Below are positions 9,033-56,473 of a DNA stretch of 64,000 nucleotides, one piece after another (the first letter of the stretch is position 1; each line of letters starts with the position of its first letter). A program made the translations under genes and the position numbers. Source of the DNA: Escherichia coli (GTDB taxonomy: Bacteria > Pseudomonadota > Gammaproteobacteria > Enterobacterales > Enterobacteriaceae); the NCBI GenBank assembly GCA_022969815.1, contig GCA_022969815.1_4535.1. One strand, given 5' to 3'. Under the pieces are notes generated by a model. That model was not told where the DNA came from, made no database searches, and was given only the letters and a program-made list of their open reading frames with translations.

Positions 9033-10814
9033 GTGACACACATTATAACGAAATATGGATTTGATGTTGATCTTAGCAGGGAAGGGCACACTGGCTGTCC
9101 ACGCTGCATGAAAAATGGCAAGGATCGCTCTCGTAATAACCTGATGGTTTATGGATTGGATTCTAACGGTGAGCATAAAGGAGCTAAATGCTTTGCGTGT
9201 GAGTACACAATCCCCAGCGTTGAATGGTTAAGAGAGAATGGTGAAGTTTTAGAAGAAGAGGAGGATATTGTGGGTTCGGAATTTAATAAAGAGATTCATC
9301 GTAAGATTGTAGAAGAAACAGGTACTAACCCACGAGGCTACCGTGGGATCAAGGAAGAATATTCTAAATTCTACGGTGTTCGTTACCAGTATAAACAAGA
9401 AGAATCTAATCTTGTTGTGGAACATACTTTGTATCCAACAACTATCGGTAAAGAACTGGTAGGTTTTAAGCGTCGTATCCATCCTAAAGACTTCTCCAAG
9501 CCCATTGGTCAAGTAGGTAAAGATGTAGATTTGTTTGGACAATTTCGTTTCCTTGAGCGTTCCCATACCGTAATCATTACTGGTGGTGAACATGATGCCT
9601 TGGCAGCATATCAAATGTTGGCAGAAGGTCTTGACAGGAAATATGAATTACCAGCAGTAGTTAGTGGCACAACTGGTGAAACCAGTATGTACAAACAGGT
9701 ACAGGCACAGTACCCTTTCTTTGAGAAGTTCAAGAAGATCATCGTCTGCATGGATAATGATAAAGCAGGTAAGGAAGCTTTTGAGAACATTGTAAAAGTG
9801 TTGCCTCGTAATAAAGTTTACCTGATGAAGATGGAACTGAAAGATGCTAATGAATACCTGTTGCAAGATAAAGCAAAAGACTTTGTGAAGGCTTATTGGG
9901 GTGCAAAACTCTATACCCCAGCAGGTGTTTATGCTTCAAACGAACTTTATGAAGCTGCAATGGATTGCTTGGATGCACAAGTGATCACTCTCCCTCCGTT
10001 CATGCGTACTGCTGCGAACATGTTGGGTGGTGGTCTGGTAGAAGAAGAGATCACAGTTATTCTGGCTAAAACGAGTATCGGTAAGACGTTGATGGTGAAT
10101 GAGATCACCAAACACATTATCGTAGCTCATCCAGAACATGTGTTGGGTATTCTGTCCCTGGAAGCAACGTATAAGAAATACTCACGTAACCTTCTTTCTT
10201 CGTTCCTGCATATTCCTTTGCATCGTAAGACTAAGGAAGAAAAGGCTGCGATCCTGGAAGAGAACAAGGAAGCTATTAATAACTTCTACGTTCGTGAAGA
10301 TGGTTCTCCTCGCTTCTTTGTCTGTGATGACCGTGGTGCAGACATTGATTCAATCAAGGAGAAGGTGCTGGAGATGATTATCTACTTTGGCATTACCATC
10401 TTGGTAATTGACCCATACTCGGATCTGTTGTCGGGGATGAGTGTTCAGGAACAAGAAGAATTGGCAACGTGGTTGAAGCGCATCATGAAAGAATATGGCA
10501 TTACGATCATCGTGATCTCTCACGTTAAGAAAGCTGCGAACAATGGTAATGAGCACTTAACCGAAGATGATGCAATGGGTAGTAGTTTCTTGGCAAAAGG
10601 TGCAGGTATTACACTGGCACTGGAACGAGATAAAGCCGCAGAAGACCCTGTTGAGCGCAACACAACTCATTGTTATATCTTGAAAAACCGTGAGTTCTCA
10701 GAAACTGGTCCTGCTGGACAATTCTATTACGATATTAAAACTGCCACACTGCACGACAAAGCACAGTATTTTGCTAATCCTGATAATGCAGGTGGTGCAG
10801 AAGGCGCATATTGA
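9033..10814 (+). CDS. DNA primase-helicase (zinc-ribbon primase N-terminus fused to a DnaB-like helicase)
   Basis: CPRCMKNG...CFAC zinc ribbon, central primase-like region, C-terminal helicase-like region; RBS AGGAGAGGA before GTG start; gene ends at a terminator hairpin. Confidence 0.75.
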   Translation: MTHIITKYGFDVDLSREGHTGCPRCMKNGKDRSRNNLMVYGLDSNGEHKGAKCFACEYTIPSVEWLRENGEVLEEEEDIVGSEFNKEIHRKIVEETGTNPRGYRGIKEEYSKFYGVRYQYKQEESNLVVEHTLYPTTIGKELVGFKRRIHPKDFSKPIGQVGKDVDLFGQFRFLERSHTVIITGGEHDALAAYQMLAEGLDRKYELPAVVSGTTGETSMYKQVQAQYPFFEKFKKIIVCMDNDKAGKEAFENIVKVLPRNKVYLMKMELKDANEYLLQDKAKDFVKAYWGAKLYTPAGVYASNELYEAAMDCLDAQVITLPPFMRTAANMLGGGLVEEEITVILAKTSIGKTLMVNEITKHIIVAHPEHVLGILSLEATYKKYSRNLLSSFLHIPLHRKTKEEKAAILEENKEAINNFYVREDGSPRFFVCDDRGADIDSIKEKVLEMIIYFGITILVIDPYSDLLSGMSVQEQEELATWLKRIMKEYGITIIVISHVKKAANNGNEHLTEDDAMGSSFLAKGAGITLALERDKAAEDPVERNTTHCYILKNREFSETGPAGQFYYDIKTATLHDKAQYFANPDNAGGAEGAY

Positions 10815-10815
10815 T

Positions 10816-10848
10816 TCAGAAGGGGCGCAAGCCCCTCTTGACTTTTGA
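10816..10848 (+). terminator. rho-independent terminator-like hairpin
   Basis: GAAGGGGC-GCAA-GCCCCTCTT stem-loop followed by a T-rich stretch. Confidence 0.5.
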
Positions 10849-10897
10849 TTGAGGAATGTGATACCCTTCAGGTTGAGTTACATAATATGGAGGACTA

Positions 10898-13495
10898 ATG
10901 AGTAAGTTTACATGGGATATTGAAGCAACCGCATTACTGAACAATGACACAATTGATTACCTGGCAAGCCCTTATCGATTGAAAGACACTTTTGGTATGC
11001 ATTGTATTTGTCTGGAAAACCACGAAACAGGAGAGATCATTGCTTTTCACGATGGTCCTAAGTACATTTTCGATGGTCGTCCTTATGAAGAGTCTGACGG
11101 TAAGTACACTTATGTACTGAAGGAGTATGTGGCACAAGAATACACACACTTTCCTCTGGCAGATTTTCCAGATTTTGTCAACCATACAGGCAAGTTCGCA
11201 GATAAGCCTGAATACCTCGTAGAAATGGCTGTAGCCCATAACGGCATCAACTATGACCACTTGGCAGTTAAGCTTTACTACGGGCTGAATTACAGCGTTA
11301 AATACAACACTTGGGGTGATTCAAAAGTTAAGATTATTGATACCTTAATCCTTAGTAAAGTATTGAACCCTGATCGCAAGGTTGATGGTAAACCTGGACA
11401 CAACTTGAATGCCCTTTCTAAAAAAGCTGGCGGGGATGTTAAGATCGATTTCCGTAAAGAGATTCCAGAAGGAGAGCGATTCAAGACGTTCGCCGCAGAT
11501 ATGTTGTACTACTGTATCTACGACAACAAGGCAACTACAGCAGTATATTATTACCTCATGGAAGAATGGGGTGATTATAAGAAGTGGCAAGAGCCGTTCG
11601 ACTTGGAGCAACGTATTGCGGATATCATCACCCGTCAAGAACACCGTGGCTTTAAGTTCAACATGCAACAAGCTGAACAGAACCTGGAATTCTTGGACAA
11701 AGAAATGGAACGTCTACGTTTGTTGGTAGAGCCTATTCTTCCACCTAAACCAGCGACTAAAGGTTATCTGAAAGATTTTATTCCACCGAAACTTCAAATC
11801 AAGAAGAACGGTGAGCCAACAAATCATATCATCAGGTTTGCGGAGAAACATGGCGGTAGCCTTGAAGAACGTGAAGGTGATTGGTGGCTGCTTGTTTTAG
11901 ATAAAGAGTTTAAGTTACCGATCTCAAGTGAAGAACCTATTTGTGAACCTACCATTCCGTCTACACTGAATGATACGACACACATTAAAAACTGGCTTGT
12001 AGGTTTGGGTTGGGTTCCGTCTGAATATAAAGACAAAGACTTGACGCTTAAATCTGGTTCGAAGATCAAGAAAGATCCTGACGACTTAGAGAAAGGTATT
12101 CTGTCTTATGTCAAACAAACTCTGGAAAGCAACTTCTGTAATGATCGTTGCGAACACTTACAAGCTGATGCTGAAACATTAGAGCTTAGAATCCGTGAAC
12201 GTCTGGCTAAAGGGAAAGGTCGTGGTCTTAAAGTGCTGACCAACCCATGCTTCACGAAGGGGCAGGAGAAAGAGATTTGTCCTAATCTTGAAGCACTGGG
12301 CGAGAAGTTCCCGTATGCCACGCAGATTGTGCAGTACCTGACGTACAAACATCGTCGAAACTCTATTTTGGGCGGTGGTGCAGATTGGGAAGACGATGAG
12401 GAAGATCAAGAATACGATAAAGGCTTCTTAGCAGCAGTTCGTGCCGATGGTCGTATATCGACTCCAGCGGCTACGTGTGACGCTGCAACATCTCGTATGA
12501 AGCATCGCTCTGTTGCGAACGTTCCTCGCGTTACATCGTTGTTTGGGTACGAAATGCGTAACTTGTTTGGGGTAGAAACACCGCGTTACTTCCAGATCGG
12601 TTATGACTTTGACTCCTTGGAAGCAAAGATTGAGTCGCATTATTGTTGGCGCTACGAACCGGAGCCTCATGAATATTGTAACGCTCTCTTGTTGGAGAAG
12701 CCTAACGATGTTCATACCATGATGGCAAGACGTATCACAGAAACTATTGGACGTAAGTTTGAACGTAGTCCAGCTAAATCTGTTAAGTACGGGATTACAT
12801 ATGGAGCACAGGCAGACAAGGTTGCTAAGACAATTGGTAGTGATAAGTACACAGGACAACTGGTGTTTGATGCATTCTGGGAAGCGGCTTTCCCGTTAGC
12901 ACAACTGAAAGAGAAGTTGAATGCTTTCTGGGTTAACACTGGCAAGCAGTATGTTCTCGGTATCGATGGACGTAAAGTCCCAACACGATCTGCACATGCA
13001 ATCTTAAACTCACTGTTCCAAAGTGGCGGGGTTATCTGTGCTAAACGTGCAATGGTGATTTATGACGATATGATCGAAGAGGAAGGTTTAGCTGTTGACT
13101 TCTTCGTTGACGACTGGAAGAATAAAGACTTCGTTCAGCAAATGATCGCTTACCACGATGAAGCGCAGCTTGAAGTATCTCGTAACTTGGTGGAATTTAA
13201 ATGGTTCTCCAAAGAATCTTTAGGTTGGGTTAAAGTGGATGACGAGAAAGAGCAGAAGAAAATAGATGCGGAATGTCTTGCAAAAGCTAACGAATGGAAG
13301 CATAATAAAGAGAAAGAGACAGGGCAGATTTGGGCTAACGTTCACGAATCACCTAAAGGTGGTTGGTTTACCGCTTACAGTCGTGCCGGAGAACTTGCTT
13401 CTCTTGCTGTTATCAAAGCTGGGGAATATTACAAACTAAATGTTCAGCTTACTGCTGGATACGATGTTGGTAGTTCCTGGGCGAGCTGTCACTGA
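10898..13495 (+). CDS. DNA polymerase, family A (Pol I-like) with 3'-5' exonuclease domain
   Basis: 865 aa; N-terminal WDIEAT exonuclease motif (DxE); RBS GGAGGA 8 nt upstream. Confidence 0.8.
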   Translation: MSKFTWDIEATALLNNDTIDYLASPYRLKDTFGMHCICLENHETGEIIAFHDGPKYIFDGRPYEESDGKYTYVLKEYVAQEYTHFPLADFPDFVNHTGKFADKPEYLVEMAVAHNGINYDHLAVKLYYGLNYSVKYNTWGDSKVKIIDTLILSKVLNPDRKVDGKPGHNLNALSKKAGGDVKIDFRKEIPEGERFKTFAADMLYYCIYDNKATTAVYYYLMEEWGDYKKWQEPFDLEQRIADIITRQEHRGFKFNMQQAEQNLEFLDKEMERLRLLVEPILPPKPATKGYLKDFIPPKLQIKKNGEPTNHIIRFAEKHGGSLEEREGDWWLLVLDKEFKLPISSEEPICEPTIPSTLNDTTHIKNWLVGLGWVPSEYKDKDLTLKSGSKIKKDPDDLEKGILSYVKQTLESNFCNDRCEHLQADAETLELRIRERLAKGKGRGLKVLTNPCFTKGQEKEICPNLEALGEKFPYATQIVQYLTYKHRRNSILGGGADWEDDEEDQEYDKGFLAAVRADGRISTPAATCDAATSRMKHRSVANVPRVTSLFGYEMRNLFGVETPRYFQIGYDFDSLEAKIESHYCWRYEPEPHEYCNALLLEKPNDVHTMMARRITETIGRKFERSPAKSVKYGITYGAQADKVAKTIGSDKYTGQLVFDAFWEAAFPLAQLKEKLNAFWVNTGKQYVLGIDGRKVPTRSAHAILNSLFQSGGVICAKRAMVIYDDMIEEEGLAVDFFVDDWKNKDFVQQMIAYHDEAQLEVSRNLVEFKWFSKESLGWVKVDDEKEQKKIDAECLAKANEWKHNKEKETGQIWANVHESPKGGWFTAYSRAGELASLAVIKAGEYYKLNVQLTAGYDVGSSWASCH

Positions 13496-13499
13496 TGGT

Positions 13500-13520
13500 A
13501 CGGGGCTTCGGCCCCTTTAT
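13500..13520 (+). terminator. terminator-like hairpin
   Basis: GGGGC-TTCG-GCCCC followed by TTTAT. Confidence 0.45.
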
Positions 13521-13530
13521 AGGAGGATAT

Positions 13531-13725
13531 ATGAGTTACGATTTAGATTACTTTGGTATGCCTTACCTACCCGATGAGTTCGCAGATGAGGCGGAGGATC
13601 GTGAGTGGGATGATGGGGATATCCGTTGTTGGTCTTGTGGTAAAGACATGTCTTATGAACAACACATGCACAACGATGGCTTCTGTCCACACTGTCAGAA
13701 TGAAATCGATTTAGAGGAGGACTAA
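13531..13725 (+). CDS. hypothetical zinc-ribbon protein
   Basis: AGGAGG then ATG 13531 downstream of the hairpin; CWSCG...CPHC motif; the track's longer 13495 start would overlap the hairpin. Confidence 0.45.
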   Translation: MSYDLDYFGMPYLPDEFADEAEDREWDDGDIRCWSCGKDMSYEQHMHNDGFCPHCQNEIDLEED

Positions 13726-13727
13726 TA

Positions 13728-13895
13728 ATGACTTCCGGTATTATGATCTGTTATAAGATCGTTCGTATTGTTGGGGATGAAGTTACTACTCGCCACTTTA
13801 TGATTGAAAATCACGCTGACGAAGTGTATAATGATTGGCTGGAACAAGGCGGATACGACTTCGTATCTAAAGAAACTTTCCACTTGGAAGTATAA
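13728..13895 (+). CDS. hypothetical small protein (55 aa)
   Basis: GAGGAGG RBS 13714-13720, ATG 13728, TAA 13893-13895. Confidence 0.4.
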   Translation: MTSGIMICYKIVRIVGDEVTTRHFMIENHADEVYNDWLEQGGYDFVSKETFHLEV

Positions 13896-13904
13896 GGAGA
13901 AGAA

Positions 13905-14123
13905 ATGCGTAAATTAGTGAGTTTTAATGTTTCAATTCTTGTTGATGAACAACATGAAGATGTTATTAAAGGTCTTGCAAATAAGCTTGCAGGTGGAATG
14001 ACGGAAGCTGAAGTGTGGGAAGAATGTGCTCGACTTTATGAGGAAGGTGTTATTGAGGTCTTGGGGGATGAGATTAATATGGACGATGTTGTAAAAGTAA
14101 CTGTGGAGCGTATCAATGACTAA
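13905..14123 (+). CDS. hypothetical protein
   Basis: AAGGAGA RBS, ORF. Confidence 0.5.
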   Translation: MRKLVSFNVSILVDEQHEDVIKGLANKLAGGMTEAEVWEECARLYEEGVIEVLGDEINMDDVVKVTVERIND

Positions 14124-14712
14124 ATCAAGCCAGATTACCCTTGCCTGTGAGATCCTTACTGTTCTTAAGATTGCTGATCCTCGTTCAATCCTGGCAGGTG
14201 GCGCAGTCCGTGACTGGCGAATGTTAAATGCTGCTGGGCGAGATCTTGACTTCTACACCTCTCTTCCTGCATATAACGGGGAAGCAGAGATTAAAGAATT
14301 TATCACCACATCTTTACGTGGGACAAATATTAAGCTTTTAGGTAACAAAGATTTACCTGAAAACTATTCGTCAATGGTTGGTTTGAAACATGTGTTTGAA
14401 TTTGAACGTGATGGTCAATTATGTAACCTCATGATCATGGAAAGGGGCTACCTACCACAAGTAGCACATAACTTTGATACATCTGTTTGCCAAGCTTCTT
14501 TCGACGGAGACACCTACTGGTATAGTGATAACTTTGAAGTTACACTCGCTACTGGTATTTGTTTCTTGCACAAAGATGCAAAGGAGGATGCCAAACATGT
14601 TCGTAAACTTGCTGATCGCTTCCCAACTATGCGTTTTGTTCGTGAAGTACATGTTCGTCCCGACCCGCAAGCGGATAATTTTGAAGATTTTCAGGACGAC
14701 ATTCCTTGGTAA
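14116..14712 (+). CDS. nucleotidyltransferase, Pol-beta superfamily, CCA-adding/poly(A) polymerase head-like, with SSB-like acidic tail
   Basis: AGGAVRDW...GRDLDF matches the GGxVRD...DxD signature of tRNA nucleotidyltransferase heads; C-terminus ends DFQDDIPW. Confidence 0.5.
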   Translation: MTKSSQITLACEILTVLKIADPRSILAGGAVRDWRMLNAAGRDLDFYTSLPAYNGEAEIKEFITTSLRGTNIKLLGNKDLPENYSSMVGLKHVFEFERDGQLCNLMIMERGYLPQVAHNFDTSVCQASFDGDTYWYSDNFEVTLATGICFLHKDAKEDAKHVRKLADRFPTMRFVREVHVRPDPQADNFEDFQDDIPW

Positions 14713-14757
14713 ATAAAGCTTGACTTTCACTAATCTTTTATGATAGGATGACAATCA

Positions 14758-15153
14758 ATGACTGAACGTTCAAAAATAAGTGTTGAAACTGAATACAGCG
14801 AATACCTGAACAGTTTGATACTTGTTGAAAAAGATGTAATAGGTCTGGATAACTCGTTCTTCTTTCAAATCCTGATAGGTAAGGGTGGACACCGAAAGTT
14901 ATTCTCTCGTGTGGAAGACTCTGACCTATCCGAAACTGAAATAACGGTTAAAGAATTTATTAGCTTGCAGGATAACATCCGAAAAGTTATTGACACAGCC
15001 GGAAACGCTGTTACAATAAAACTCGATATGCATTCTGTGCAATTTGTTCATTTTCCGAATGGAGAAATTGGAGTTGGAATAGGTAAAGGTAAGTACCTTT
15101 TAGAAAAAGAAAACGCAGAGCTTCTTCGTGAGTTCTGTGCAAAAACAATGTGA
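14758..15153 (+). CDS. hypothetical protein
   Basis: ORF. Confidence 0.5.
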   Translation: MTERSKISVETEYSEYLNSLILVEKDVIGLDNSFFFQILIGKGGHRKLFSRVEDSDLSETEITVKEFISLQDNIRKVIDTAGNAVTIKLDMHSVQFVHFPNGEIGVGIGKGKYLLEKENAELLREFCAKTM

Positions 15154-15170
15154 ATATAGAGGAGATAATA

Positions 15171-16079
15171 ATGTCCGTAATTAATACTGAAACTGATCGT
15201 AAAGGCAAAACTGTAACTTATGCAACTGGTGTTGTAGACTACGTTAAACTGGATAAATTTGCAGAGCCTAAAACCTTCCAATGGGATGGTAAGTCGATTG
15301 TTTCTACTCACCGTGCTTCACTCGTTCTGAAAGAAAAGGGTGCCAAGCAGGATGCAAAAGGGACGTGGATTAGCCTGGGTGATATTGAACTGAAAGAAGG
15401 TTACGAAAATCTTCAGGTTAAAGATGGTGATACTTGGATCACTATCGAAAAAGGTGTTGAAGTTAGTATTGATATCGACAAAGTTGATACCAAAGGTGAC
15501 AAAACTTACTACAATACTAAGAAATCTCGTATCACTGTTCTTTCTACTGAAGGCGTTCAAAAGAAAGAAAATAAATCAGGTGGCACTGGCGTTTCAGGTA
15601 ACACTGGAAACAAACAATCCTTCAAAAAACGTGATACCGTAGGTCTTGAGACTGGTCACGCAGTTAACGGAGCTTTGGAACTGATTCGTAATGGTGTGAA
15701 AGGTGAAGCGTTTGATATTGCAGGTGTGGTTCAGTCTGCTACTGTGACTCTGAAAGCTGAAGTGGCTAAAGAGCGTGGCGTAGATATCAGTGATTATGAT
15801 CTGGGGGCTTCTGTTGGTCACGCTGTTCTGAATGCCTGTAAAGATCATTCCGGTAAGTCTGTTTCAGTAGAAGATTTGATTGAAACTGCTCGTGAAGTTC
15901 TGGCACTTTCTGACAAGGTAGCTAATGCCATTCGTGGTGCAGCAGAACAACCTAAGAAAGAAGAAGCCAAGAAAGAGCCTAAGAAGGAAGAACCTAAGCA
16001 GGAGCCTAAGCAAGAACCTGCTCCTCAACAAAATCAAGAAGAACCTCCAATGGACTTCGACGATGATATTCCTTTTTGA
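15171..16079 (+). CDS. ssb: single-stranded DNA-binding protein (SSB-like) with canonical acidic C-terminal tail
   Basis: C-terminus ...PPMDFDDDIPF matches the bacterial SSB tail; GAGGAG RBS then ATG 15171; low-complexity linker before the tail. Confidence 0.6.
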   Translation: MSVINTETDRKGKTVTYATGVVDYVKLDKFAEPKTFQWDGKSIVSTHRASLVLKEKGAKQDAKGTWISLGDIELKEGYENLQVKDGDTWITIEKGVEVSIDIDKVDTKGDKTYYNTKKSRITVLSTEGVQKKENKSGGTGVSGNTGNKQSFKKRDTVGLETGHAVNGALELIRNGVKGEAFDIAGVVQSATVTLKAEVAKERGVDISDYDLGASVGHAVLNACKDHSGKSVSVEDLIETAREVLALSDKVANAIRGAAEQPKKEEAKKEPKKEEPKQEPKQEPAPQQNQEEPPMDFDDDIPF

Positions 16080-16108
16080 TCTTATTGATTTATAAAGAGT
16101 TTTTATAA

Positions 16109-16142
16109 AAGAAAAGGGAACCTTTGCGGGTTCCCTTTTTTA
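16109..16142. terminator. bidirectional rho-independent terminator between convergent genes
   Basis: AAAAGGGAACC-TTTGCG-GGTTCCCTTTTTTATT, with A-run and T-run flanking a perfect stem. Confidence 0.7.
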
Positions 16143-18818
16143 TTAGTCGTAATATTTCAAACCTGTAATGAACTTCGATCCCCAATCCGCACTTGCGGCG
16201 GTGAACGTCAACATCCAAGTAGTAGCTGTACCAGTGAAGACCTCTCGTTGCACAGTCCCATCCGTGTGGTAAATGTCCACCCCAGTGTGTCCGTTCTTAG
16301 GAATAGTGAAGGTAGCAGCACTGGAACTGTCTCGTGCATAAGAACAAACAAATGGTGTCCCCGCCCAAACTGGATTTGTCATATCACCCATCTCAAGCTG
16401 TGGAACCCAAGCAATAAGACCTGCCGTACCATCTCCTGCGAAAGTGTCTGATCCACTTGCATTCAAAGCTATAATCTCATAGGTTATAGATGCTTGTTTG
16501 GCAACTGTCACTTTGTGTAGAATTACACGATACCAACCATTCCCCATATCGATTATGTTTGCATCTGCACCTGTAAATGTTCCAGCTACAAGATCATAAG
16601 TCCCTTCGTTAATCTCGTCTCCTGAAGTCAATTTGAGTTTCACTTTAGTGATCCCGTCTGGCTTCAAGAATACAGATGCCGCCCATTGTTTACCTGCTGT
16701 GATATCCGAAGCCGTGTTCACTGCTGATAAAATATGTTGTCCTGAAGTTGTAGAAGGTGTTAACTTGTAAGTGTTAGCGGTAGTTCCAACCGGAGAGTTG
16801 ATTGTTGATGCTGCTACTGTCAAGTTAGTCTTCAGCCACGGGGAGGCGGTTGTCAAGTTATTGTTGATAAAGATATGTGTACGACTGTTTGCTACAACAC
16901 GTCTACCCTGTGGAGTTGTACCAACATATTCTAAAGGTGCTACGGGAGCAGAACTCTCTGTAGGTACAAGGATATCTCCAGAAGTCCTCGCATAACGGTT
17001 ACTCCTGTTTACGCTTACACCTGCCGGAATAGTTTCTTGCGTCAAATCATAGTCCATCACAATCACCACAGCATTTACCGCTAAATAAGAACTATCTTCC
17101 GCAGTTACCACGCCTTGATAGGTTGCTCTACAACCGATACGACAATCCCCATCAGTAACCGCTGTAATAACGCCTGTAACGGGGTCAACTGTTGCTACCG
17201 TAGGGTCGTTAGAGAAATACTCAACAACCATGCCAGGGAGGTTCTCCGCCCCTGCTGGAGTTATTTCTGCCACCAATGTCTGCGTTGTTCCTTCATCCAT
17301 AGCTGAAAGGCTCGGAGTATACACCCCCAGTACAGAAGCATATCCCCCAGAACTGTCGGATAAGGTTGTTCCTGCTGCGTTTAATGCTGTCATCCCTGCA
17401 TCAAAACCACCTTCAGCAACAAACGTCATCAAACCAGAGGAAGATATCGTCATATAAGCTGGGGCAGATGTTGTGTAAGCTTCGTTGAAGATCTTACCTC
17501 CTGAAGGACTTACTGAATAGGTTAACTGTTTGCTCCCACCAACAATACAAATACCTAAAGAATCTGTAGTTAAACTGGTAGCCAAATCTGATCCTAAGAT
17601 CGAATCTTGTGAAATAGGTGCGAACTTGTTAGAATTCAACGTCCCATTAAACAGAGGGTTGGTCTTACCGTCAACAGTAACACCAGAGTAAAACAGATTA
17701 CCATCGTAGACAAAGAAAGTAGCATGGTAGCCTAACTGGTTAGTCACATCCAGATTCTGACTGTGGACACTTGTTAGTTTGCTCATGTCCCAATTCGGAA
17801 CACCTTCGGGTTTAAGAGGCTTCTCAACAACCAAAGGATCTGCTGCCAGAGATGCGTAACCAACACCTAAGTTTCCTGTGTAGTTTTTACCTACAGCCCA
17901 CAAACTGTTATTAATACTTAAGAAGAAAGCGTGGCGACTCATTGGGAAACTCCATGCAGAGAAACCGCCGGAGAAGTTGCTTACTTTCGTATAAGTTGTC
18001 GCAGTGTTAGAACGTGCATACAAATAATTCGTTGTTCCAGTACCGCCAGAGGTATCTCCAATTACCAATGTCTGGGAAACCGTGTTAACGTAATCTTTCA
18101 CAAAAACTGTTTCGGTAGAAGATATAGTCGCAGTAACGAAAGCTGTTGTTGTACTGTTGTTACCTGCCATACCTTTGCTTGCACCGCAAACACGTAATGC
18201 ACCGACATTGTTAAGGTAAGAACACTGGTTGTATCCTGCATCAAATGCTAAAGCAACAGAAGTTATTTGACGTGGATTTGGGATTTGGTTAGTATTACTT
18301 GCACCAAGGCTTCCTACTGTGTTTTGTCCCGAACCATAAAGGACTCCATTGTTCATGAGCCACAAGGTGTTATTATAACCCCCTTTGACCTCTTTCAGGT
18401 TGGCTAAGGTTATGATTGAGGTAATAGATGATGGGAAGCTGGTCCACGTAGTCATGCAAACATCAGCGCCGCCAGCGGCTGTAGATCCAACAAGACCTGC
18501 TAACAATCCTGCATACTGCCAACCACCACTTTGAAGCTTGATAACGAAGCAACGATCTGCTGGAAATATATCTGCTGCTGTTGTTGATGCTAAATGGAAG
18601 GTAGAGTATTTTGCTGTACGTGTGCCGTCAGCAATCTCTCCGAACACATTATCCCCTTGAGTGAATAAACGCCCATCGTTCAAGAGGAGAGCTAAACTGC
18701 TTTTAGAATTGCCAGAAGCATCTGGGTAATCTAAAGTTATTACTTTCTTGATTATTCCTGCTGGAAGTGGAACTACACCTGTGCTGGTCATAATCATCAT
18801 TACTGGAATTGGAAACAT
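16143..18818 (-). CDS. tail fibre / receptor-binding protein with Ig-like (Big_2-like) segment
   Basis: 891 aa, Thr/Ser/Gly-rich beta composition; segment TVDPVTGVITAVTDGDCRIGCRATYQGVVTAEDSSYLAVNAV resembles bacterial Ig-like domains. Confidence 0.55.
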   Translation of the reverse strand: MFPIPVMMIMTSTGVVPLPAGIIKKVITLDYPDASGNSKSSLALLLNDGRLFTQGDNVFGEIADGTRTAKYSTFHLASTTAADIFPADRCFVIKLQSGGWQYAGLLAGLVGSTAAGGADVCMTTWTSFPSSITSIITLANLKEVKGGYNNTLWLMNNGVLYGSGQNTVGSLGASNTNQIPNPRQITSVALAFDAGYNQCSYLNNVGALRVCGASKGMAGNNSTTTAFVTATISSTETVFVKDYVNTVSQTLVIGDTSGGTGTTNYLYARSNTATTYTKVSNFSGGFSAWSFPMSRHAFFLSINNSLWAVGKNYTGNLGVGYASLAADPLVVEKPLKPEGVPNWDMSKLTSVHSQNLDVTNQLGYHATFFVYDGNLFYSGVTVDGKTNPLFNGTLNSNKFAPISQDSILGSDLATSLTTDSLGICIVGGSKQLTYSVSPSGGKIFNEAYTTSAPAYMTISSSGLMTFVAEGGFDAGMTALNAAGTTLSDSSGGYASVLGVYTPSLSAMDEGTTQTLVAEITPAGAENLPGMVVEYFSNDPTVATVDPVTGVITAVTDGDCRIGCRATYQGVVTAEDSSYLAVNAVVIVMDYDLTQETIPAGVSVNRSNRYARTSGDILVPTESSAPVAPLEYVGTTPQGRRVVANSRTHIFINNNLTTASPWLKTNLTVAASTINSPVGTTANTYKLTPSTTSGQHILSAVNTASDITAGKQWAASVFLKPDGITKVKLKLTSGDEINEGTYDLVAGTFTGADANIIDMGNGWYRVILHKVTVAKQASITYEIIALNASGSDTFAGDGTAGLIAWVPQLEMGDMTNPVWAGTPFVCSYARDSSSAATFTIPKNGHTGVDIYHTDGTVQREVFTGTATTWMLTFTAASADWGSKFITGLKYYD

Positions 18819-53455: not shown

Positions 53456-53575
53456 GATTTGTCCTATTAAGTATTTAGTGTTTAGTGGGTTGTGCGTTTT
53501 AGGAGTCGCACCCCTCCCTCTTAGAAGGAACCAGGCAAGGTCTTCAAAGATACCGCTGGCGCGATATTTGGAGGC

Positions 53576-53654
53576 GGGAATCGGATTCGAACCGATGATC
53601 TCCAGCATATGAAACTGGCGAGGACGACCAAACTCCTCTATCCCGCTATTAGGT
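53576..53654 (-). tRNA. tRNA-Met (anticodon CAU), CCA encoded; A1/C72 mismatch suggests initiator or Ile2 identity
   Basis: Hand-folded cloverleaf: D-stem GAGG/CCTC, anticodon stem CCAGT/GCTGG, loop TTCATAT, T-arm ATCGG-TTCGAAT-CCGAT. Confidence 0.7.
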
Positions 53655-53660
53655 GTCCCG

Positions 53661-53729
53661 TGCTGGATTCGAACCAGCATCACAATAGTTGTGGATCTCT
53701 TATCCTGTAAGTCTAACGGGAAACTGGTT
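53661..53729 (-). tRNA. tRNA-like element, non-canonical (possible pseudo-tRNA)
   Basis: Intact T-arm (GCTGG-TTCGAAT-CCAGC) and 6/7 acceptor pairing, but I could not fold a canonical D-arm or a 5-7-5 anticodon arm; no encoded CCA. Confidence 0.35.
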
Positions 53730-53731
53730 GT

Positions 53732-53805
53732 TTCGACAAGAATCGAACTTGTATCTCACGATTATCAGTCGTGGGTTCTACCATTGAACTACGAAACATT
53801 TAATT
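53732..53805 (-). tRNA. tRNA-Ile (anticodon GAU), CCA encoded
   Basis: Acceptor TGTTTCG/CGAAACA, D-arm GTTC-AATGGTA-GAAC, anticodon arm CACGA-CTGATAA-TCGTG, T-loop TTCGATT. Confidence 0.75.
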
Positions 53806-53821
53806 GGTAGGAATTGCAGGA

Positions 53822-54163
53822 TTACCAAGTAACATCATGCCCTGAATGGAAAGCGCAATGACAGTTCTTACAGAGTAAGACGCAATTCTCTATCTCTTTG
53901 TCTATTCTTGCAAGTGACCAGCCACGCATAGATCCGTAGTTCTTATCTTTTATTGCTGGGTCAAGATGGTGAATATCCAAAGATTCTTCATACTGATTAA
54001 ATCCGCAAGCGGCGCACTTACCTCCTAACTTATCACGAGCATATTTTTTCTTATGTTGTCCAAGTTCTGTCGTATACTTATTATGACAGGCTCCACAAAT
54101 AGATTTCTTATGTCCGTAGAATTTCGTAGGATCTTCTTCGCCACAATGACTGCATTTACACAT
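53822..54163 (-). CDS. HNH homing endonuclease inserted in the tRNA cluster
   Basis: Cys-rich with HHLDP ... N ... LLCKNCH (HNH-type motif); sits between tRNA genes. Confidence 0.65.
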   Translation of the reverse strand: MCKCSHCGEEDPTKFYGHKKSICGACHNKYTTELGQHKKKYARDKLGGKCAACGFNQYEESLDIHHLDPAIKDKNYGSMRGWSLARIDKEIENCVLLCKNCHCAFHSGHDVTW

Positions 54164-54184
54164 ACAAAAAATCTCTTTACAAAT

Positions 54185-54260
54185 TGGTCAGCCTAAGAAG
54201 ACTTGAACTTCTAACCTCACCGCCCCAAACGGCGCACTCTTCCAATTGAGCTATAGGCTG
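54185..54260 (-). tRNA. tRNA-Pro (anticodon UGG), CCA encoded
   Basis: Acceptor CAGCCTA/TAGGCTG, anticodon arm CGCCG-TTTGGGG-CGGTG, T-loop TTCAAGT. Confidence 0.75.
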
Positions 54261-54460
54261 TTAATAAAAAATCTCACGTCTTATACAAGCTAACCTTTTG
54301 CCTGATGCATGAAATTTAAATACATTCTAAAGGTACACCGTAAAAGATTGTCGGGGCGATACTTCAAAAACATACCGATCCGTAGATCGATAATCAGACA
54401 AACTTCGACGGCTCCTCGTTTTTAACTTCACACTTAAGGTAGTGACTCACCTTTGTTATA

Positions 54461-54536
54461 TGGCTGGTCTGTCTGGATTTGAACCAAACCTACGACAGTC
54501 AAAGTGTCGTGTGCTACCGGACTACAATACAAACCA
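54461..54536 (-). tRNA. tRNA-Gln (anticodon UUG), CCA encoded
   Basis: Acceptor TGGTTTG/CAGACCA, anticodon arm CGACA-CTTTGAC-TGTCG, T-loop TTCAAAT; D-stem looks to be 3 bp. Confidence 0.65.
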
Positions 54537-54626
54537 TTTAATGAAGGGCAACCAGAAGAGGTGTGAGAGAAGGAGAAAACCATGAGTAAAAGAGAAAGTT
54601 TTCTGGCAACCCTTTATTAAATAATT

Positions 54627-54700
54627 TGGAGCGTTCTACGAGTTTCGAACTCGTGCCGCCGACTTGGAAGGACGGAATGCTACCGCTACACCAAGAACGC
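54627..54700 (-). tRNA. tRNA-Gly (anticodon UCC), CCA encoded
   Basis: Acceptor GCGTTCT/AGAACGC, anticodon loop CTTCCAA, T-loop TTCGAAA; one U-U mismatch in the anticodon stem. Confidence 0.65.
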
Positions 54701-55268
54701 CCTACATCTTTACTATACTACATTTTACTATCAGTTGTCAATAGTTTTATTGGGCGGGACAGTGACGAGTATCCCATTGGGTGACTAACCCTACGTTCGG
54801 TTGTGATTAATCTCCTGGGTGTCGCTTGCAACACTGGAAAACTCTCACGTCGATGGGAGAATCCGCTTCTTCTTTACCCCATCCAACCCTACTCCGGTCA
54901 AGTTTCAGGTGACTCTTTTTGTGATCAACACAATACTAAGAACACTGTCTTTCGAGCAGACCTTGTGCACAGGATACGACGATCAATCACAGTGCTCTTA
55001 ATGTTGTGCCACAATAATAAGAACATTCAAACGATGACCACTTTTAGTGGAGAGATTTACAAAATGCTCTTAATGTTGTGTTGTGAATACTAACCTCGGA
55101 ACTCATTACCGCGCTTTGGCTCGACCTTATTACAGGTTAGTGAATGTCTTTCGTCCGATTACATTCAATAAATTTGCTTTCTTCACAACGATAAGAACAC
55201 TTAACAGAAGATAGGTCTGATTGCCTCGGATGATTTCTCAGTAGCCTAAATGTTCTTACCTGTTATGT

Positions 55269-55344
55269 TGGTGCTCCAAGTAGGACTCGAACCTACGACC
55301 TCATGCTTACAAGGCAAGTGCTCTACCAACTGAGCTATTGAAGC
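55269..55344 (-). tRNA. tRNA-Thr (anticodon UGU), CCA encoded
   Basis: D-arm GCTC-AGTTGGTA-GAGC, anticodon loop CTTGTAA, T-arm GTAGG-TTCGAGT-CCTAC. Confidence 0.7.
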
Positions 55345-55696
55345 GTATTGCGCCCCTTCAGCCATGCTTGATGTTGACCAGAACACAGTTAAACTGTGGG
55401 AGGAGGAACACCGCAGGGGGCTTCAGTTGGACGACTTACAGGGAGCGACCCTGTTTCTTTTCTGGGACTCGGCAGGATTCGATACCTGCAATTCCAGAAG
55501 CCTCTTGGCAACTGAGGGTTTACCTTAACCCTACAAGTCCATAATTCTTAAATACTTTGGAGCCTTACTGATAAACCGTTAGTTTGTAACATAGCGTATT
55601 TCCATTCTGGGGCACCGCCTGTGAATGTAATTCCAATACAAACTTTCTCAAGATCAAACCAATTATCAAATAACATTACAACCTCCAGTTTGAATT

Positions 55697-55780
55697 TGGT
55701 GTGAGATGATGGATTCGAACCACCGCGCCTTTCAGAAGGGATTTACAGTCCCCCGCAATCGACCACTCTGCCAATCTCAC
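55697..55780 (-). tRNA. tRNA-Tyr (anticodon GUA), long variable arm, CCA encoded
   Basis: Acceptor GTGAGAT/ATCTCAC, anticodon arm GGGGA-CTGTAAA-TCCCT, 12-nt variable arm, T-loop TTCGAAT. Confidence 0.7.
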
Positions 55781-55904
55781 AAAATTGTTTTTAAAGTAGC
55801 CAGTATTCGCGGTACTGACTATGCGGTATCGGAGATGGTGAGAGCCATCTGCCGAAAGTTTACTCTGTTAAAGTAAGAAACAACAAGCTACATTAAAAAC
55901 AACT

Positions 55905-55990
55905 TGGCGGTAGATGTAGGACTCGAACCTACACGCCGTTTCCGACTACAGTTTAGCAAACTGTTGTGGCTACCATTTCACCAATCTACC
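55905..55990 (-). tRNA. tRNA-Ser (anticodon GCU), long variable arm, CCA encoded
   Basis: Acceptor GGTAGAT/ATCTACC, anticodon arm ACAGT-TTGCTAA-ACTGT, 15-nt variable arm, T-loop TTCGAGT. Confidence 0.7.
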
Positions 55991-55996
55991 TAAATT

Positions 55997-56086
55997 TGGA
56001 GGAAGGTAATGGAGTCGAACCATCACCGTATCTCTACAATGGGCCAGGGTTCAAATCTGGTTGCGTACCACTACGCCCTACCTTCC
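55997..56086 (-). tRNA. tRNA-Ser (anticodon UGA), long variable arm, CCA encoded
   Basis: Acceptor GGAAGGT/ACCTTCC, anticodon loop TTTGAAC with A31-C39 mismatch, long variable arm, T-loop TTCGACT. Confidence 0.6.
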
Positions 56087-56321
56087 ATACATTTAATCTA
56101 ACATAAAACGATGTTGATTGTCAACACCTTTTAAAACATTTTATTATGAATGGTGACTCCACCAACCCCCGTTCTCCACGAACGGTACTCTTCGAGCAAT
56201 CTACCCTTGCAATCAAACGTTGTACACCGTTAGCTTACTCATGCATATTTGCCTCATTCTCTGCCAACCATGATCAGTGGTAGGGTTCAAATCACTTGAG
56301 CTAATTCATACTAAAATGTTC

Positions 56322-56396
56322 TGGTGTCTTTACAAGGAATCGAACCTTGACTAAGAGTTTAGAAGACTCCTGTGCTATCCATTACACCATAAAGAC
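56322..56396 (-). tRNA. tRNA-Arg (anticodon UCU), CCA encoded
   Basis: Acceptor GTCTTTA/TAAAGAC, anticodon arm GGAGT-CTTCTAA-ACTCT, T-loop TTCGATT. Confidence 0.75.
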
Positions 56397-56398
56397 GT

Positions 56399-56473
56399 TG
56401 GTGGCCCTGACTGGTTTCGATCCAGTTGCCTATCGGTTATGAGCCGACTGCTCTCCCATTGAGCTACAGGGCC
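56399..56473 (-). tRNA. tRNA-Met or Ile2 (anticodon CAU), CCA encoded; unusual A at T-loop position 54
   Basis: Acceptor GGCCCTG/CAGGGCC, D-arm GCTC-AATGGGA-GAGC, anticodon arm GTCGG-CTCATAA-CCGAT, T-loop ATCGAAA. Confidence 0.65.

What the first reader, a model, noticed from the sequence alone, without database searches (positions are those of the whole stretch)
14116..16079. Nucleotidyltransferase carrying an SSB-like C-terminal tail, two genes upstream of a true SSB
ORF 14116..14712 has the GGxVRD...DxD signature of CCA-adding enzyme or poly(A) polymerase head domains but is only 198 aa, and it ends in DFQDDIPW. The SSB at 15171..16079 ends in the canonical DFDDDIPF. The bacterial SSB tail is a protein-recruitment peptide, so the nucleotidyltransferase may use a mimic tail to dock on the same partners, or on SSB-coated DNA or RNA. 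The enzyme could repair tRNA 3' ends, or it could be a minimal nucleotidyltransferase with another substrate.
Basis: partly seen in the sequence, partly recalled or inferred. Interest (0 to 1): 0.6.

Follow-up and report, generated by a model that had tools for sequence, protein, structure and literature searches.

The report
Phage nucleotidyltransferase with SSB-tip tail
A small phage enzyme in the DNA-replication gene block, related to the anti-defence protein Gad2, ends in a conserved copy of the peptide that bacterial SSB uses to recruit partners, so it is probably delivered to replication forks and is unlikely to repair tRNA.

Summary

The tip DDIPW is kept in alleles only 35-64% identical, with synonymous codon changes, while the linker varies. 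DDDIPW also ends many genuine phage SSBs and one primase-helicase, so it is a real SSB-type tip.

The "true SSB" is not verified: 15171..16079 matches SSBs only in its last ~13-25 residues, which include 12 identical to the end of E. coli SSB.

New points:
- The enzyme belongs to a large family of stand-alone ~170-230-aa phage NTases homologous to the NTase domain of Gad2, the anti-Gabija protein (hhalign 97.9%, E 4.5e-13).
- The family sits beside PolA or primase-helicase genes, not tRNA genes.
- The gene is a swapped, fast-diverging cassette inside a 98-100% identical module.

tRNA CCA repair is unlikely: there are no tRNA-binding domains, and all 11 phage tRNA genes encode CCA. Best reading: an accessory, probably counter-defence, NTase recruited by SSB-tip mimicry. 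Substrate and partner are unknown.

The parts
14116..14712 (+). Stand-alone class II-type nucleotidyltransferase (198 aa), Gad2-NTase-like, with a C-terminal SSB-tip-like tail
14194..14256 (+). Motif A, residues 27-47 AGGAVRDWRMLNAAGRDLDFY (catalytic DxD = D43, D45)
   Evidence: G28 G29 D43 D45 invariant and A27 A30 R32 D33 W34 >=90% conserved in 139 sequences; aligns with the GGAVRD...DxD of CCA-adding enzymes
14473..14490 (+). Residues 120-125 FDTSVC, the family motif F-x-x-S-I-C. It corresponds to FDFTVC of Gad2 and to the DxTIN part of class II motif B. The RR of 'RRD' is absent.
   Evidence: Column conservation; hhalign alignment to Gad2; the weak Gad2-Cca alignment pairs FDFTV with RRDLTIN
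14644..14685 (+). Variable linker, probably disordered (residues 177-190)
   Evidence: pLDDT block means fall to 65 (residues 181-190) and 46 (191-198) in the model; sequence and length vary among homologs
14686..14709 (+). SSB-tip-like terminus DFQDDIPW (residues 191-198); core DDIPW
   Evidence: D194 P197 W198 invariant and D195 I196 >=90% conserved in 11 homologs; kept at 35% overall identity in P0135/L087; synonymous codon variation; DDDIPW ends many true phage SSBs
13960..14725 (.). Mosaic (swapped) segment: the 3' part of the upstream ORF plus the whole NTase gene
   Evidence: DNA identity to L003 is 45-78% here against 98-100% on both sides; the right boundary falls at the NTase stop; protein identities
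13905..14123 (+). 72-aa ORF overlapping the NTase start by 8 nt (translational coupling likely); function unknown
   Evidence: ORF; phrog_25475, unknown function; 69% identity to L003 but 96% to L002, so it is not strictly co-inherited with the NTase
14758..15153 (+). Conserved 131-aa ORF of unknown function between the NTase and the SSB-like gene
   Evidence: phrog_16560; syntenic in L002-L009, L011 and L012, and a 129-aa gene occupies the same position in L087
15171..16079 (+). 302-aa 'SSB-like' protein: body of unknown fold, K/E/P-rich linker and a tip identical to that of E. coli SSB
   Evidence: only the tail matches SSBs; annotated SSB in some relatives
16053..16076 (+). Tip DFDDDIPF; the last 12 residues, EPPMDFDDDIPF, are identical to the E. 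coli SSB C-terminus
   Evidence: hhalign 92% identity over 13 residues; E. coli SSB sequence
9033..13495 (+). Context: gp4-type primase-helicase (9033..10814) and family-A DNA polymerase (10898..13495) upstream in the same gene block
   Evidence: Pfam DNA_pol_A; annotation of relatives; neither ends in an acidic aromatic tail
16112..16139 (.). Hairpin with flanking A and T runs between the convergent SSB-like and tail-fibre genes; likely a bidirectional terminator that ends the replication gene block
   Evidence: Terminator-like hit. The overall hit count in the region was not above the shuffle expectation, so this rests on its position.

Best explanation
SHOWN. The window is a phAPEC8-like (Stephanstirmvirinae) coliphage. 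ORF 14116..14712 encodes a stand-alone nucleotidyltransferase with the class II (CCA-adding/poly(A) polymerase) head fold and an intact DxD centre. It belongs to a large family of ~170-230-aa phage proteins whose closest characterised relative is the N-terminal NTase domain of Gad2, a phage anti-Gabija protein of unknown mechanism. The family is typically encoded beside family-A DNA polymerase and gp4-type primase-helicase genes. In this lineage the ~176-residue core is followed by a ~20-residue low-confidence linker ending in DDIPW. The tip is under purifying selection, and DDDIPW also ends many genuine phage SSBs. The gene is the fastest-diverging one in the module and is exchanged as a cassette. 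INFERRED. The tail works like the SSB C-terminal tip: its terminal aromatic residue, free carboxylate and preceding acidic residues dock into an SSB-tip-binding pocket. The pocket could be on host SSB-interacting proteins, or on the phage replisome protein that also recruits the neighbouring DDDIPF-tailed protein. Docking would concentrate the NTase at ssDNA and replication forks. There it would transfer nucleotides to a nucleic-acid 3' end or to another fork-associated substrate. Gad2 homology, rapid turnover and patchy tail distribution suggest an accessory, probably counter-defence, role and argue against both a core replication step and tRNA CCA repair. The substrate and the docking partner are unknown.
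For: Identity of the phage: 99% DNA identity to phiWec188/190. Fold and active site. Stand-alone family: 431 representatives at E<=1e-3, mostly 175-230 aa, plus many small phage NTases in BFVD with TM up to 0.79-0.84. Gad2 link: a precomputed 'Gad2 (faint)' Pfam label. hhalign of the family against 8 Gad2-family sequences gives Prob 97.9%, E 4.5e-13 over 117 columns. A Gad2 HMM hits 85 of 139 members, including P0007 at 24.3 bits. Control: Gad2 vs E. coli Cca, Prob 0.7%. A preprint reports an NTase directly upstream of a primase/helicase that is annotated Gad2-family and is toxic when overexpressed. Replisome association: 44 of 66 distant loci have PolA or primase-helicase within 6 kb and 15 are immediately adjacent, in about 9 arrangements. 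tRNA genes lie within 6 kb in only 7 of 39 loci. Tail: invariant or near-invariant DDIPW on a variable linker; retained at 35% identity in the same synteny; synonymous codon changes; low pLDDT. IP[FWY] ends recur in at least 6 separate sub-lineages whose nearest neighbours are untailed. DDDIPW-stop occurs 117 times in IMG/VR; of 76 such ORFs, 24 are canonical OB-fold SSBs and others are gp2.5-like or gp32-like SSBs or a primase-helicase. Accessory, arms-race character: NTase 34-35% identity against 69-78% for PolA and primase-helicase, and a 64% allele inside a 98-100% identical module with sharp breakpoints. Precedent for shared tails: the acidic tails of T7 gp2.5 and gp4 dock on T7 DNA polymerase (PMC12339929).
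Against: No binding or activity data exist. The window protein alone scores only 6.9 bits against the small Gad2 HMM and lacks Gad2's ~250-residue C-terminal region. Homology to Gad2's NTase domain does not imply anti-Gabija activity, and Gad2's mechanism is itself unknown. I found no documented link between Gabija and SSB tips. Syntenic relatives (phi92-like and rV5-like, L004-L012) keep the NTase but not the IPW tip, so the tip is not essential to the family's function. Phage genes of DNA metabolism cluster anyway, so neighbourhood is suggestive, not proof, and the loci are partly redundant. The terminal residue is always W in this clade, while the neighbouring protein always has F. This could mean a different partner from the canonical SSB-tip sites.
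Confidence: 0.45

Rival explanations
1. tRNA 3'-end (CCA) adding or repair enzyme, or poly(A) polymerase, serving the phage's tRNA set. This is the database annotation and the first reader's first option.
For: Class II CCA/PAP head fold and motif A. Relatives are annotated 'tRNA nucleotidyl transferase / poly(A) polymerase'. The phage carries 11 tRNA genes. One very distant homolog (L069) lies 3 kb from a tRNA cluster.
Against: The protein is only 198 aa with a ~176-aa core, and nothing corresponds to the tRNA-binding body and tail of ~400-aa CCA enzymes. Sequence similarity to Cca is limited to 25 columns of motif A, and the 'RRD' of motif B is replaced by NFD. All 11 phage tRNA genes encode CCA. 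The tRNA cluster is 39 kb away, whereas the gene sits in the replication block. Across the family, tRNA genes are nearby in 7 of 39 loci against replication genes in 44 of 66. The host has its own Cca.
Confidence: 0.08
2. A regular, non-defence accessory of the phage replisome, for example one that processes or tails primer or DNA 3' ends. Its tail would dock on the phage DNA polymerase at the same site as the phage SSB-like protein, in the manner of T7 gp2.5 and gp4 on gp5.
For: Conserved position next to PolA and primase-helicase in many unrelated phages. SSB-type tips occur on a gp4-like primase-helicase. T7 precedent. The adjacent SSB-like protein has the same kind of tip.
Against: The NTase diverges far faster than PolA, the helicase and the SSB-like protein (34-35% vs 48-85%), and is swapped as a cassette between otherwise 98-100% identical modules. 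That is unusual for a component that must fit a conserved machine. The tip is missing in syntenic relatives. The window's helicase has no such tail. The closest characterised relative is an anti-defence protein.
Confidence: 0.22
3. The tail does not recruit partners. It would act in cis, as an acidic nucleic-acid mimic folding back on the enzyme's own substrate groove as proposed for SSB, gp2.5 and gp32 tails, or as a decoy that titrates SSB-tip-binding host or defence proteins independently of catalysis.
For: Acidic C-terminal tails of SSBs are known to fold back on their own DNA-binding surfaces (gp2.5 model in PMC12339929). NTases of this family can be toxic when overexpressed, so autoinhibition would make sense. 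Syntenic relatives carry other acidic or aromatic ends (...PWDEEF...DSFEKF...SPDVFNF).
Against: The conservation is position-specific for D-D-I-P-W, the residues that define tip-pocket recognition, and not for general acidity. The same terminus is used by true SSBs. The AF2 model does not place the tail on the core; it is low confidence there.
Confidence: 0.15
4. The resemblance of the tail to the SSB tip is a chance or recombination by-product without function.
For: The gene lies in a recombination hot spot whose right boundary is at the tail.
Against: The tip is retained in alleles of 35-89% identity with synonymous changes. The tail codons differ from those of the neighbouring gene, so it is not a recent copy. 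My estimate of the chance of DF.DDIP[FWY] at a C-terminus is ~1e-9 per protein. IP[FWY] termini recur in the family.
Confidence: 0.03

Closest known systems
Gad2 (Gabija anti-defence 2; Pfam PF26128), e.g. SPbetaL7 ORF_159 and homologs
   Same: Homologous NTase domain with the same motif series (AGGA...DxDxYF; Q-x-M/I strand; FDx[T/S][V/I]C...[F/W]D). hhalign 97.9%, E 4.5e-13 over 117 columns. Phage-encoded, and some members are toxic when overexpressed. The published Gad2 homolog list includes small 214-228-aa proteins and proteins from the coliphage 4MG and a Klebsiella virus.
   Different: Canonical Gad2 is ~400 aa, with a ~250-aa C-terminal region that is absent here. SPbeta Gad2 lies in an anti-defence locus, not a replication module. 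Of the six full-length Gad2 sequences used here, none ends in DDIP[FW]. Anti-Gabija activity has not been tested for this subfamily. The window protein itself is a weak match (6.9 bits).
Class II nucleotidyltransferases: bacterial CCA-adding enzymes and poly(A) polymerase I (Pfam PF01743 head domain; 1miv, 3aql, 3h37, 4wby)
   Different: No tRNA- or RNA-binding body and tail domains; about half the length; below the Pfam threshold; motif B lacks the two arginines; a different C-terminal helix with conserved K164 and F169-P170.
Stand-alone 'CCA-adding enzyme head domain' protein NP_344798.1 (PDB 2la3, 191 aa)
   Different: Per my recollection of the entry it is a bacterial protein of unknown function. 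No sequence-level relationship was detected here, and no SSB-type tail is known for it.
E. coli SSB C-terminal tip (SSB-Ct, ...MDFDDDIPF) and the proteins that bind it
   Same: The NTase ends DFQDDIPW: the same D-F at -8/-7, D-D-I-P at -5 to -2, a terminal aromatic residue with a free carboxylate, all on a flexible linker. Tip recognition by about 17 partner proteins is established knowledge (for example PMC10018359, listed).
   Different: The carrier is an enzyme and not an ssDNA-binding protein. The terminal residue is Trp, not Phe, and position -6 is Q, not D. Binding is untested.
T7 gp2.5 (SSB) and gp4 (primase-helicase) acidic C-terminal tails docking on T7 DNA polymerase
   Same: The principle that several replisome proteins of one phage share an acidic tail with a terminal aromatic residue that docks on one partner. 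A gp4-like primase-helicase ending DDDIPW was found here.
   Different: T7 tails end ...DF, not ...IP[FW]. In this phage the helicase has no such tail, and the second carrier is an NTase.
MenT/AbiEii-type NTase toxins
   Different: Clearly more distant in structure than class II enzymes; different motifs; not phage replication-module genes.

Membership tests
Class II nucleotidyltransferase head domain (PolyA_pol, PF01743) | Motif A GGxVRD-x(8-10)-DxD with two catalytic aspartates | tested here: met
   AGGAVRDW-x8-DLD; G28 G29 D43 D45 invariant in 139 sequences; aligned to CCA enzymes
Class II nucleotidyltransferase head domain (PolyA_pol, PF01743) | Score above Pfam's gathering threshold | tested here: not met
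   13.1 bits against a cut-off of 23, E 0.13; 20 of 139 family members match at E<=0.01, best 3.9e-5
Class II nucleotidyltransferase head domain (PolyA_pol, PF01743) | Head-domain fold | tested here: met
CCA-adding enzyme (functional tRNA nucleotidyltransferase) | Neck, body and tail domains that bind the tRNA and select nucleotides (motif B RRD, motif D EDxxR) | tested here: not met
   198 aa with a ~176-aa ordered core; no alignment to Cca beyond motif A; NFD in place of RRD
CCA-adding enzyme (functional tRNA nucleotidyltransferase) | CCA addition to tRNA 3' ends | not testable with these tools
   Needs an in vitro assay. Indirectly, all 11 phage tRNA genes already encode CCA.
Gad2 (PF26128) | Homology to the Gad2 N-terminal NTase domain | tested here: met
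   Family-level hhalign Prob 97.9%, E 4.5e-13, 117 columns; 85 of 139 members hit a Gad2 HMM; the window protein alone scores only 6.9 bits; the Pfam copy available gave no PF26128 hit
Gad2 (PF26128) | Full Gad2 architecture (~400 aa with the C-terminal region) | tested here: not met
   The alignment stops at Gad2 position ~146 and the protein ends at 198; no long paralog in phiWec188
Gad2 (PF26128) | Inhibition of Gabija defence | not testable with these tools
   Needs plating assays on Gabija-expressing hosts
SSB C-terminal tip motif (applied to the NTase tail) | C-terminal ...D-D-[IVL]-P-aromatic with a free carboxylate, preceded by acidic residues | tested here: met
   DFQDDIPW-stop; Trp in place of Phe. 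DDDIPW is a natural end of 24 canonical OB-fold phage SSBs.
SSB C-terminal tip motif (applied to the NTase tail) | Tip carried on a flexible, poorly conserved linker | tested here: met
   pLDDT block means 65 (residues 181-190) and 46 (191-198); the linker varies in length and sequence
SSB C-terminal tip motif (applied to the NTase tail) | Binding to SSB-tip pockets of partner proteins | not testable with these tools
   No complex prediction or binding assay was available
Bacterial-type SSB (OB fold, PF00436), applied to ORF 15171..16079 | N-terminal OB-fold ssDNA-binding domain | tested here: inconclusive
Bacterial-type SSB (OB fold, PF00436), applied to ORF 15171..16079 | Low-complexity linker plus acidic tip ...DDDIPF | tested here: met
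   EPPMDFDDDIPF identical to E. coli SSB; most of 120 homologs end in ...[IVC]PF, 67 of them exactly DDDIPF

The most novel reading that the evidence does not exclude
A phage counter-defence enzyme uses molecular mimicry of the host SSB C-terminal tip to enter the SSB interaction network at replication forks or DNA ends. There it nucleotidylates a DNA or primer 3' end, or a tip-binding host or defence helicase-nuclease, and so blinds DNA-end or DNA-damage-sensing immunity of the Gabija type. If so, this small replisome-linked subfamily would expose the still unknown mechanism of Gad2.
Probability: 0.2. Interest if true: 0.85.

Novelty: new variant of a known kind. Interest (0 to 1): 0.58.

Why it matters
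The SSB tip is the central recruitment handle of bacterial genome maintenance, and phage SSBs trigger several defence systems. An enzyme that carries the handle itself would be a simple, testable case of a virus plugging a catalytic activity into that network. The family is widespread in phage replication modules and uncharacterised, although routinely annotated as 'tRNA nucleotidyltransferase', which is probably misleading. It is specifically related to Gad2, whose way of defeating Gabija is still unknown. A 198-aa, single-domain relative with a recognisable address label is a much easier object for biochemistry than the 400-aa Gad2. The side result that DDDIPW and DDDIPF tips end at least four different SSB folds, a primase-helicase and several unknown protein families suggests that C-terminal tips could be used to discover phage replisome and anti-host proteins.

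Tried and rejected
- The first AF2 run with 11 close homologs gave pLDDT 45 and was unusable. It was replaced by a 139-sequence alignment.
- Single-sequence PDB search gave only noise (abscisic-acid receptors).
- NCBIfam gave no hit for the NTase or for distant tailed members.
- The Pfam copy available never reported PF26128, so the Gad2 link was tested with sequences from the paper's supplement.
- hhalign of the family against E. coli Cca aligned motif A only, so motifs B-E could not be mapped by sequence.
- For the SSB-like protein, profile searches against the PDB, NCBIfam, Pfam (all 48 members), E. coli SSB and T7 gp2.5 gave nothing beyond the tail.
- The L017 ORF ending DDVPW could not be tied to gp2.5, and the L017/L023 ORFs match only phrog_862, of unknown function.
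- Promoter scan: no more hits than in shuffled sequence.
- Literature: nothing on 'DDIPW', nothing linking phAPEC8 NTases to a function, no documented Gabija-SSB-tip link. The DRT9 paper was irrelevant and PMC2781589 is not held.
- A T7-like 'helicase tail' in this phage was rejected: the primase-helicase ends ...GGAEGAY.
- A recent DNA copy of the SSB-like tail was rejected: the codons differ.
- A fixed o72-NTase gene pair was rejected: o72 is 96% identical in L002 while the NTase is 64%.
- A second, full-length Gad2 paralog in the phage was rejected.
Full report
WHAT THE WINDOW IS. The region is 99% identical in DNA to Escherichia phages phiWec188 and phiWec190. These are ~150-kb myoviruses of the Stephanstirmvirinae (Phapecoctavirus). 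The finding lies at the 3' end of a plus-strand block of replication genes. The order is gp4-type primase-helicase (9033..10814), family-A DNA polymerase (10898..13495), three small ORFs, the candidate (14116..14712), a 131-aa ORF (14758..15153) and the tailed 302-aa protein (15171..16079). Convergent tail-fibre genes follow. In relatives the candidate is already annotated 'putative tRNA nucleotidyl transferase / poly(A) polymerase' or 'nucleotidyltransferase'. The NTase call is therefore not new. The tail observation is.

CHECK OF THE OBSERVATION. Both ORFs and both C-termini are exactly as described. Among 431 ORFs of >=40 aa in the window, only these two real genes have an acidic ...P[FW] end. 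In the phiWec188 genome (1-147,900 of 149,831 bp scanned), they are the only ORFs with an acidic ...IP[FW] end. The two tails match at 6 of the last 8 positions, plus F->W. By my estimate from amino-acid frequencies, DF.DDIP[FWY] at a C-terminus is expected about once in 1e9 proteins. The codons differ from those of the neighbouring gene (GAC GAC against GAT GAT, TTT against TTC), so the tail is not a recent DNA copy.

CLOSEST CHARACTERISED RELATIVE: GAD2. The protein collection carried a precomputed but 'faint' Pfam label, PF26128 'Gad2', on three homologs. Gad2 is a ~400-aa phage protein that inhibits the Gabija defence system. AlphaFold predicts an NTase domain in it, and how it works is unknown (bioRxiv 10.1101/2023.05.01.538930). 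A 2026 review still lists its mechanism as unresolved (PMC12904381). I took eight Gad2-family sequences from the paper's Supplementary Table 10, aligned them and compared profiles. The result was Prob 97.9%, E 4.5e-13 over 117 aligned columns, covering motif A, the Q-x-M strand and FDx[T/S][V/I]C. A Gad2 HMM hits 85 of the 139 family members, including homologs 58-63% identical to the window protein (21-24 bits). The window protein alone gives only 6.9 bits. As a control, Gad2 against E. coli Cca is insignificant (Prob 0.7%), so the relationship is specific and does not reduce to the motif common to all class II enzymes. The phage has no full-length Gad2 paralog. A 2026 preprint describes a Pseudomonas phage NTase directly upstream of the primase/helicase that is toxic when overexpressed and is annotated 'Gad2 family' in some phages. 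That is the same arrangement as seen in this family.

GENOMIC ASSOCIATION. In 80 IMG/VR loci with a family member, the block primase-helicase, PolA, NTase, 131-aa ORF, SSB-like protein recurs in the phAPEC8-, phi92- and rV5-like supergroup (L002-L012). Of 66 more distant loci, 44 have a PolA or gp4-type primase-helicase homolog within 6 kb. Fifteen are immediately adjacent (<=150 nt), in about nine different gene orders. tRNA genes are within 6 kb in only 7 of 39 loci. In the window the tRNA cluster is 39 kb away, and all 11 tRNA genes encode their own CCA. This argues against tRNA maturation or repair and for a role connected with DNA replication. The loci are partly redundant, and phage DNA-metabolism genes cluster in any case.

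THE TAIL. Among 11 close homologs (down to 58% identity), D194, P197 and W198 are invariant and D195 and I196 nearly so. The preceding ~15 residues vary in sequence and length. P0135 is only 35% identical but lies in the same synteny, and it ends ...NFPDDIPW. Across alleles the Asp codons change synonymously while DDIPW is kept. Other members end ...NDIPW...DDGIPF...NNIPF...KPIPF and ...ESIPY. Each of these has untailed nearest neighbours, so the tip was gained or lost several times. Is a terminal Trp a legitimate SSB tip? An exact DNA search for DDDIPW-stop in IMG/VR gave 117 stretches, against my rough chance estimate of 5-10. Of 76 ORFs ending this way, 24 are canonical OB-fold SSBs, for example a 160-aa protein ending EPPMDFDDDIPW that matches E. 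coli SSB end to end. Others are mini-SSBs, gp2.5-like and gp32-like SSBs, a 587-aa gp4-type primase-helicase, and several unknown families. So DDIPW is a natural phage version of the SSB tip, and non-SSB replisome enzymes sometimes carry it. The known precedent is T7, where the acidic tails of gp2.5 and gp4 dock on the DNA polymerase (PMC12339929). I found no report of an NTase with such a tip.

EVOLUTIONARY BEHAVIOUR. The NTase is by far the most divergent gene of the module: 34-35% identity where PolA and primase-helicase keep 69-78% and the SSB-like protein 48-85%. Against contig L003 the flanking proteins are 98-100% identical, but the NTase is 64%. DNA identity falls from 98-100% to 45-78% between ~13,960 and ~14,725, with the right breakpoint at the NTase stop codon. 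The gene is therefore an exchangeable cassette in a fixed slot. That is typical of host-interaction or anti-defence genes and unusual for a core replisome part. Both alleles nevertheless keep DDIPW.

THE NEIGHBOURING 'SSB'. Most of its 120 homologs end in ...[IVC]PF, 67 of them exactly DDDIPF. The last 12 residues are identical to those of E. coli SSB. Every sequence method matched SSBs only through the last ~13-25 residues. The main PHROG for the body (phrog_4477) is 'unknown function', and there is no similarity to T7 gp2.5. No canonical SSB was found elsewhere in phiWec188 with a simple phmmer search. It may well be the phage's SSB with a novel body, but 'true SSB' is an assumption.

MOST LIKELY MECHANISM. 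Shown: an intact class II-type NTase head, Gad2-like, replisome-linked and fast-evolving, with a selected SSB-type tip on a flexible linker. Inferred: the tip docks the enzyme into an SSB-tip-binding pocket, on host SSB-interacting proteins or on the phage protein that also recruits the DDDIPF-tailed neighbour. Docking would bring nucleotidyl transfer to ssDNA, forks or DNA ends, and the role would be accessory and probably counter-defence. Substrate and partner are unknown. I give this composite 0.45. Rivals: an ordinary replisome accessory factor docking on PolA (0.22); a tail acting in cis or as a pure decoy (0.15); tRNA CCA repair (0.08); a chance tail (0.03). The consistent W (NTase) against F (SSB-like) difference is unexplained and may indicate different partner preferences. 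Syntenic relatives without the tip show that it modulates the family's function and is not required for it.

NOVELTY AND VERDICT. The gene and its NTase annotation are known. New here are four points: the selected SSB-tip mimic on an enzyme, the specific homology to Gad2's NTase domain, the family-wide link to PolA and primase-helicase genes, and the cassette behaviour. I rate it a new variant of a known kind, with interest 0.58. It is a clean, cheap experimental entry into SSB-network hijacking and the unknown Gad2 mechanism, but no function has been demonstrated.

Noticed in passing
L004:7053-8000 (phi92-like contig); also proteins P0073 and P0109: In phi92-like phages the SSB-like protein has the tip inside the protein: ...QDFDDDIPF is followed by a 15-16-residue extension (APIGLQYGRNFLHCF; ASLGLQYASHAIHAIF; APICLMYPNHAIYAL). 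This would block the free carboxylate of the tip. The NTase of the same phages has no IPW tip (it ends ...NEEFKI).
   Followed up: partly
L005:7053-7865 and downstream: The SSB-like gene of this contig is interrupted. The linker and the DFDDDIPF... tail continue in the +1 frame, which indicates a frameshift, a sequencing error or programmed slippage.
   Followed up: partly
L090-L169 (IMG/VR loci with DDDIPW-stop): DDDIPW ends at least four SSB folds (canonical OB, an 80-aa mini-SSB, gp2.5-like, gp32-like), a 587-aa gp4-type primase-helicase (L146), and families of unknown function. The unknown families are phrog_862 (236-241 aa), phrog_3284 (with a Gly-rich linker), phrog_23155, and 158-166-aa proteins ending KKYHEPFDDDIPW. 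C-terminal tips could serve as a search handle for phage replisome or anti-host proteins.
   Followed up: partly
L017:727-1416 and L023:3134-3805: phrog_862 proteins (223-229 aa, unknown function) lie shortly downstream of PolA, ~2-3 kb upstream of the NTase homolog, and end ...DGDDVPW or ...DKDIPW. They may be an unrecognised SSB family.
   Followed up: partly
L078:3062-3904 and L078:6199-6750; L032:3740-4216 (-): In one phage a primase-helicase-like ORF (...ERADDRVPF) and a gp2.5-like SSB (...EDLDEDVPF) share the same kind of tail. In another, a DnaD-like or replication-initiation protein ends ...DDEEGLPF.
   Followed up: no
window 53569..56473 (-): Cluster of 11 tRNA genes (Met x2, Ile, Pro, Gln, Gly, Thr, Tyr, Ser x2, Arg), all with a genomically encoded 3' CCA.
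   Followed up: yes
window 13495..13725 (+): 76-aa ORF with two CxxC pairs (zinc-ribbon-like; weak Pfam hits) and a strongly acidic end (...NEIDLEED), directly after the DNA polymerase gene. Its start overlaps the polymerase stop.
   Followed up: no
A4 sequences (Gad2 homologs): Some Gad2-family proteins end in hydrophobic or aromatic C-termini preceded by Pro (...ETLKPIF...KAVPIF...APYPWF). I did not examine whether these are docking peptides.
   Followed up: no
phiWec188 82336..83421 (outside the window): The phage NrdB ends ...DDMEFDF, the classical R2 C-terminal peptide that docks on R1. This is another example of a C-terminal docking tail in the same genome.
   Followed up: no
window 14116..14712 compared: Typical phAPEC8-group phages carry an NTase allele only ~64% identical to the window's, while over 13400-16200 as a whole they are ~78% identical in DNA. 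The same holds against phiWec179/181/186, which are 91.7% identical over that stretch. The window allele is shared at 99% only with phiWec188/190, and at 85-89% with three metagenomic protein clusters.
   Followed up: partly
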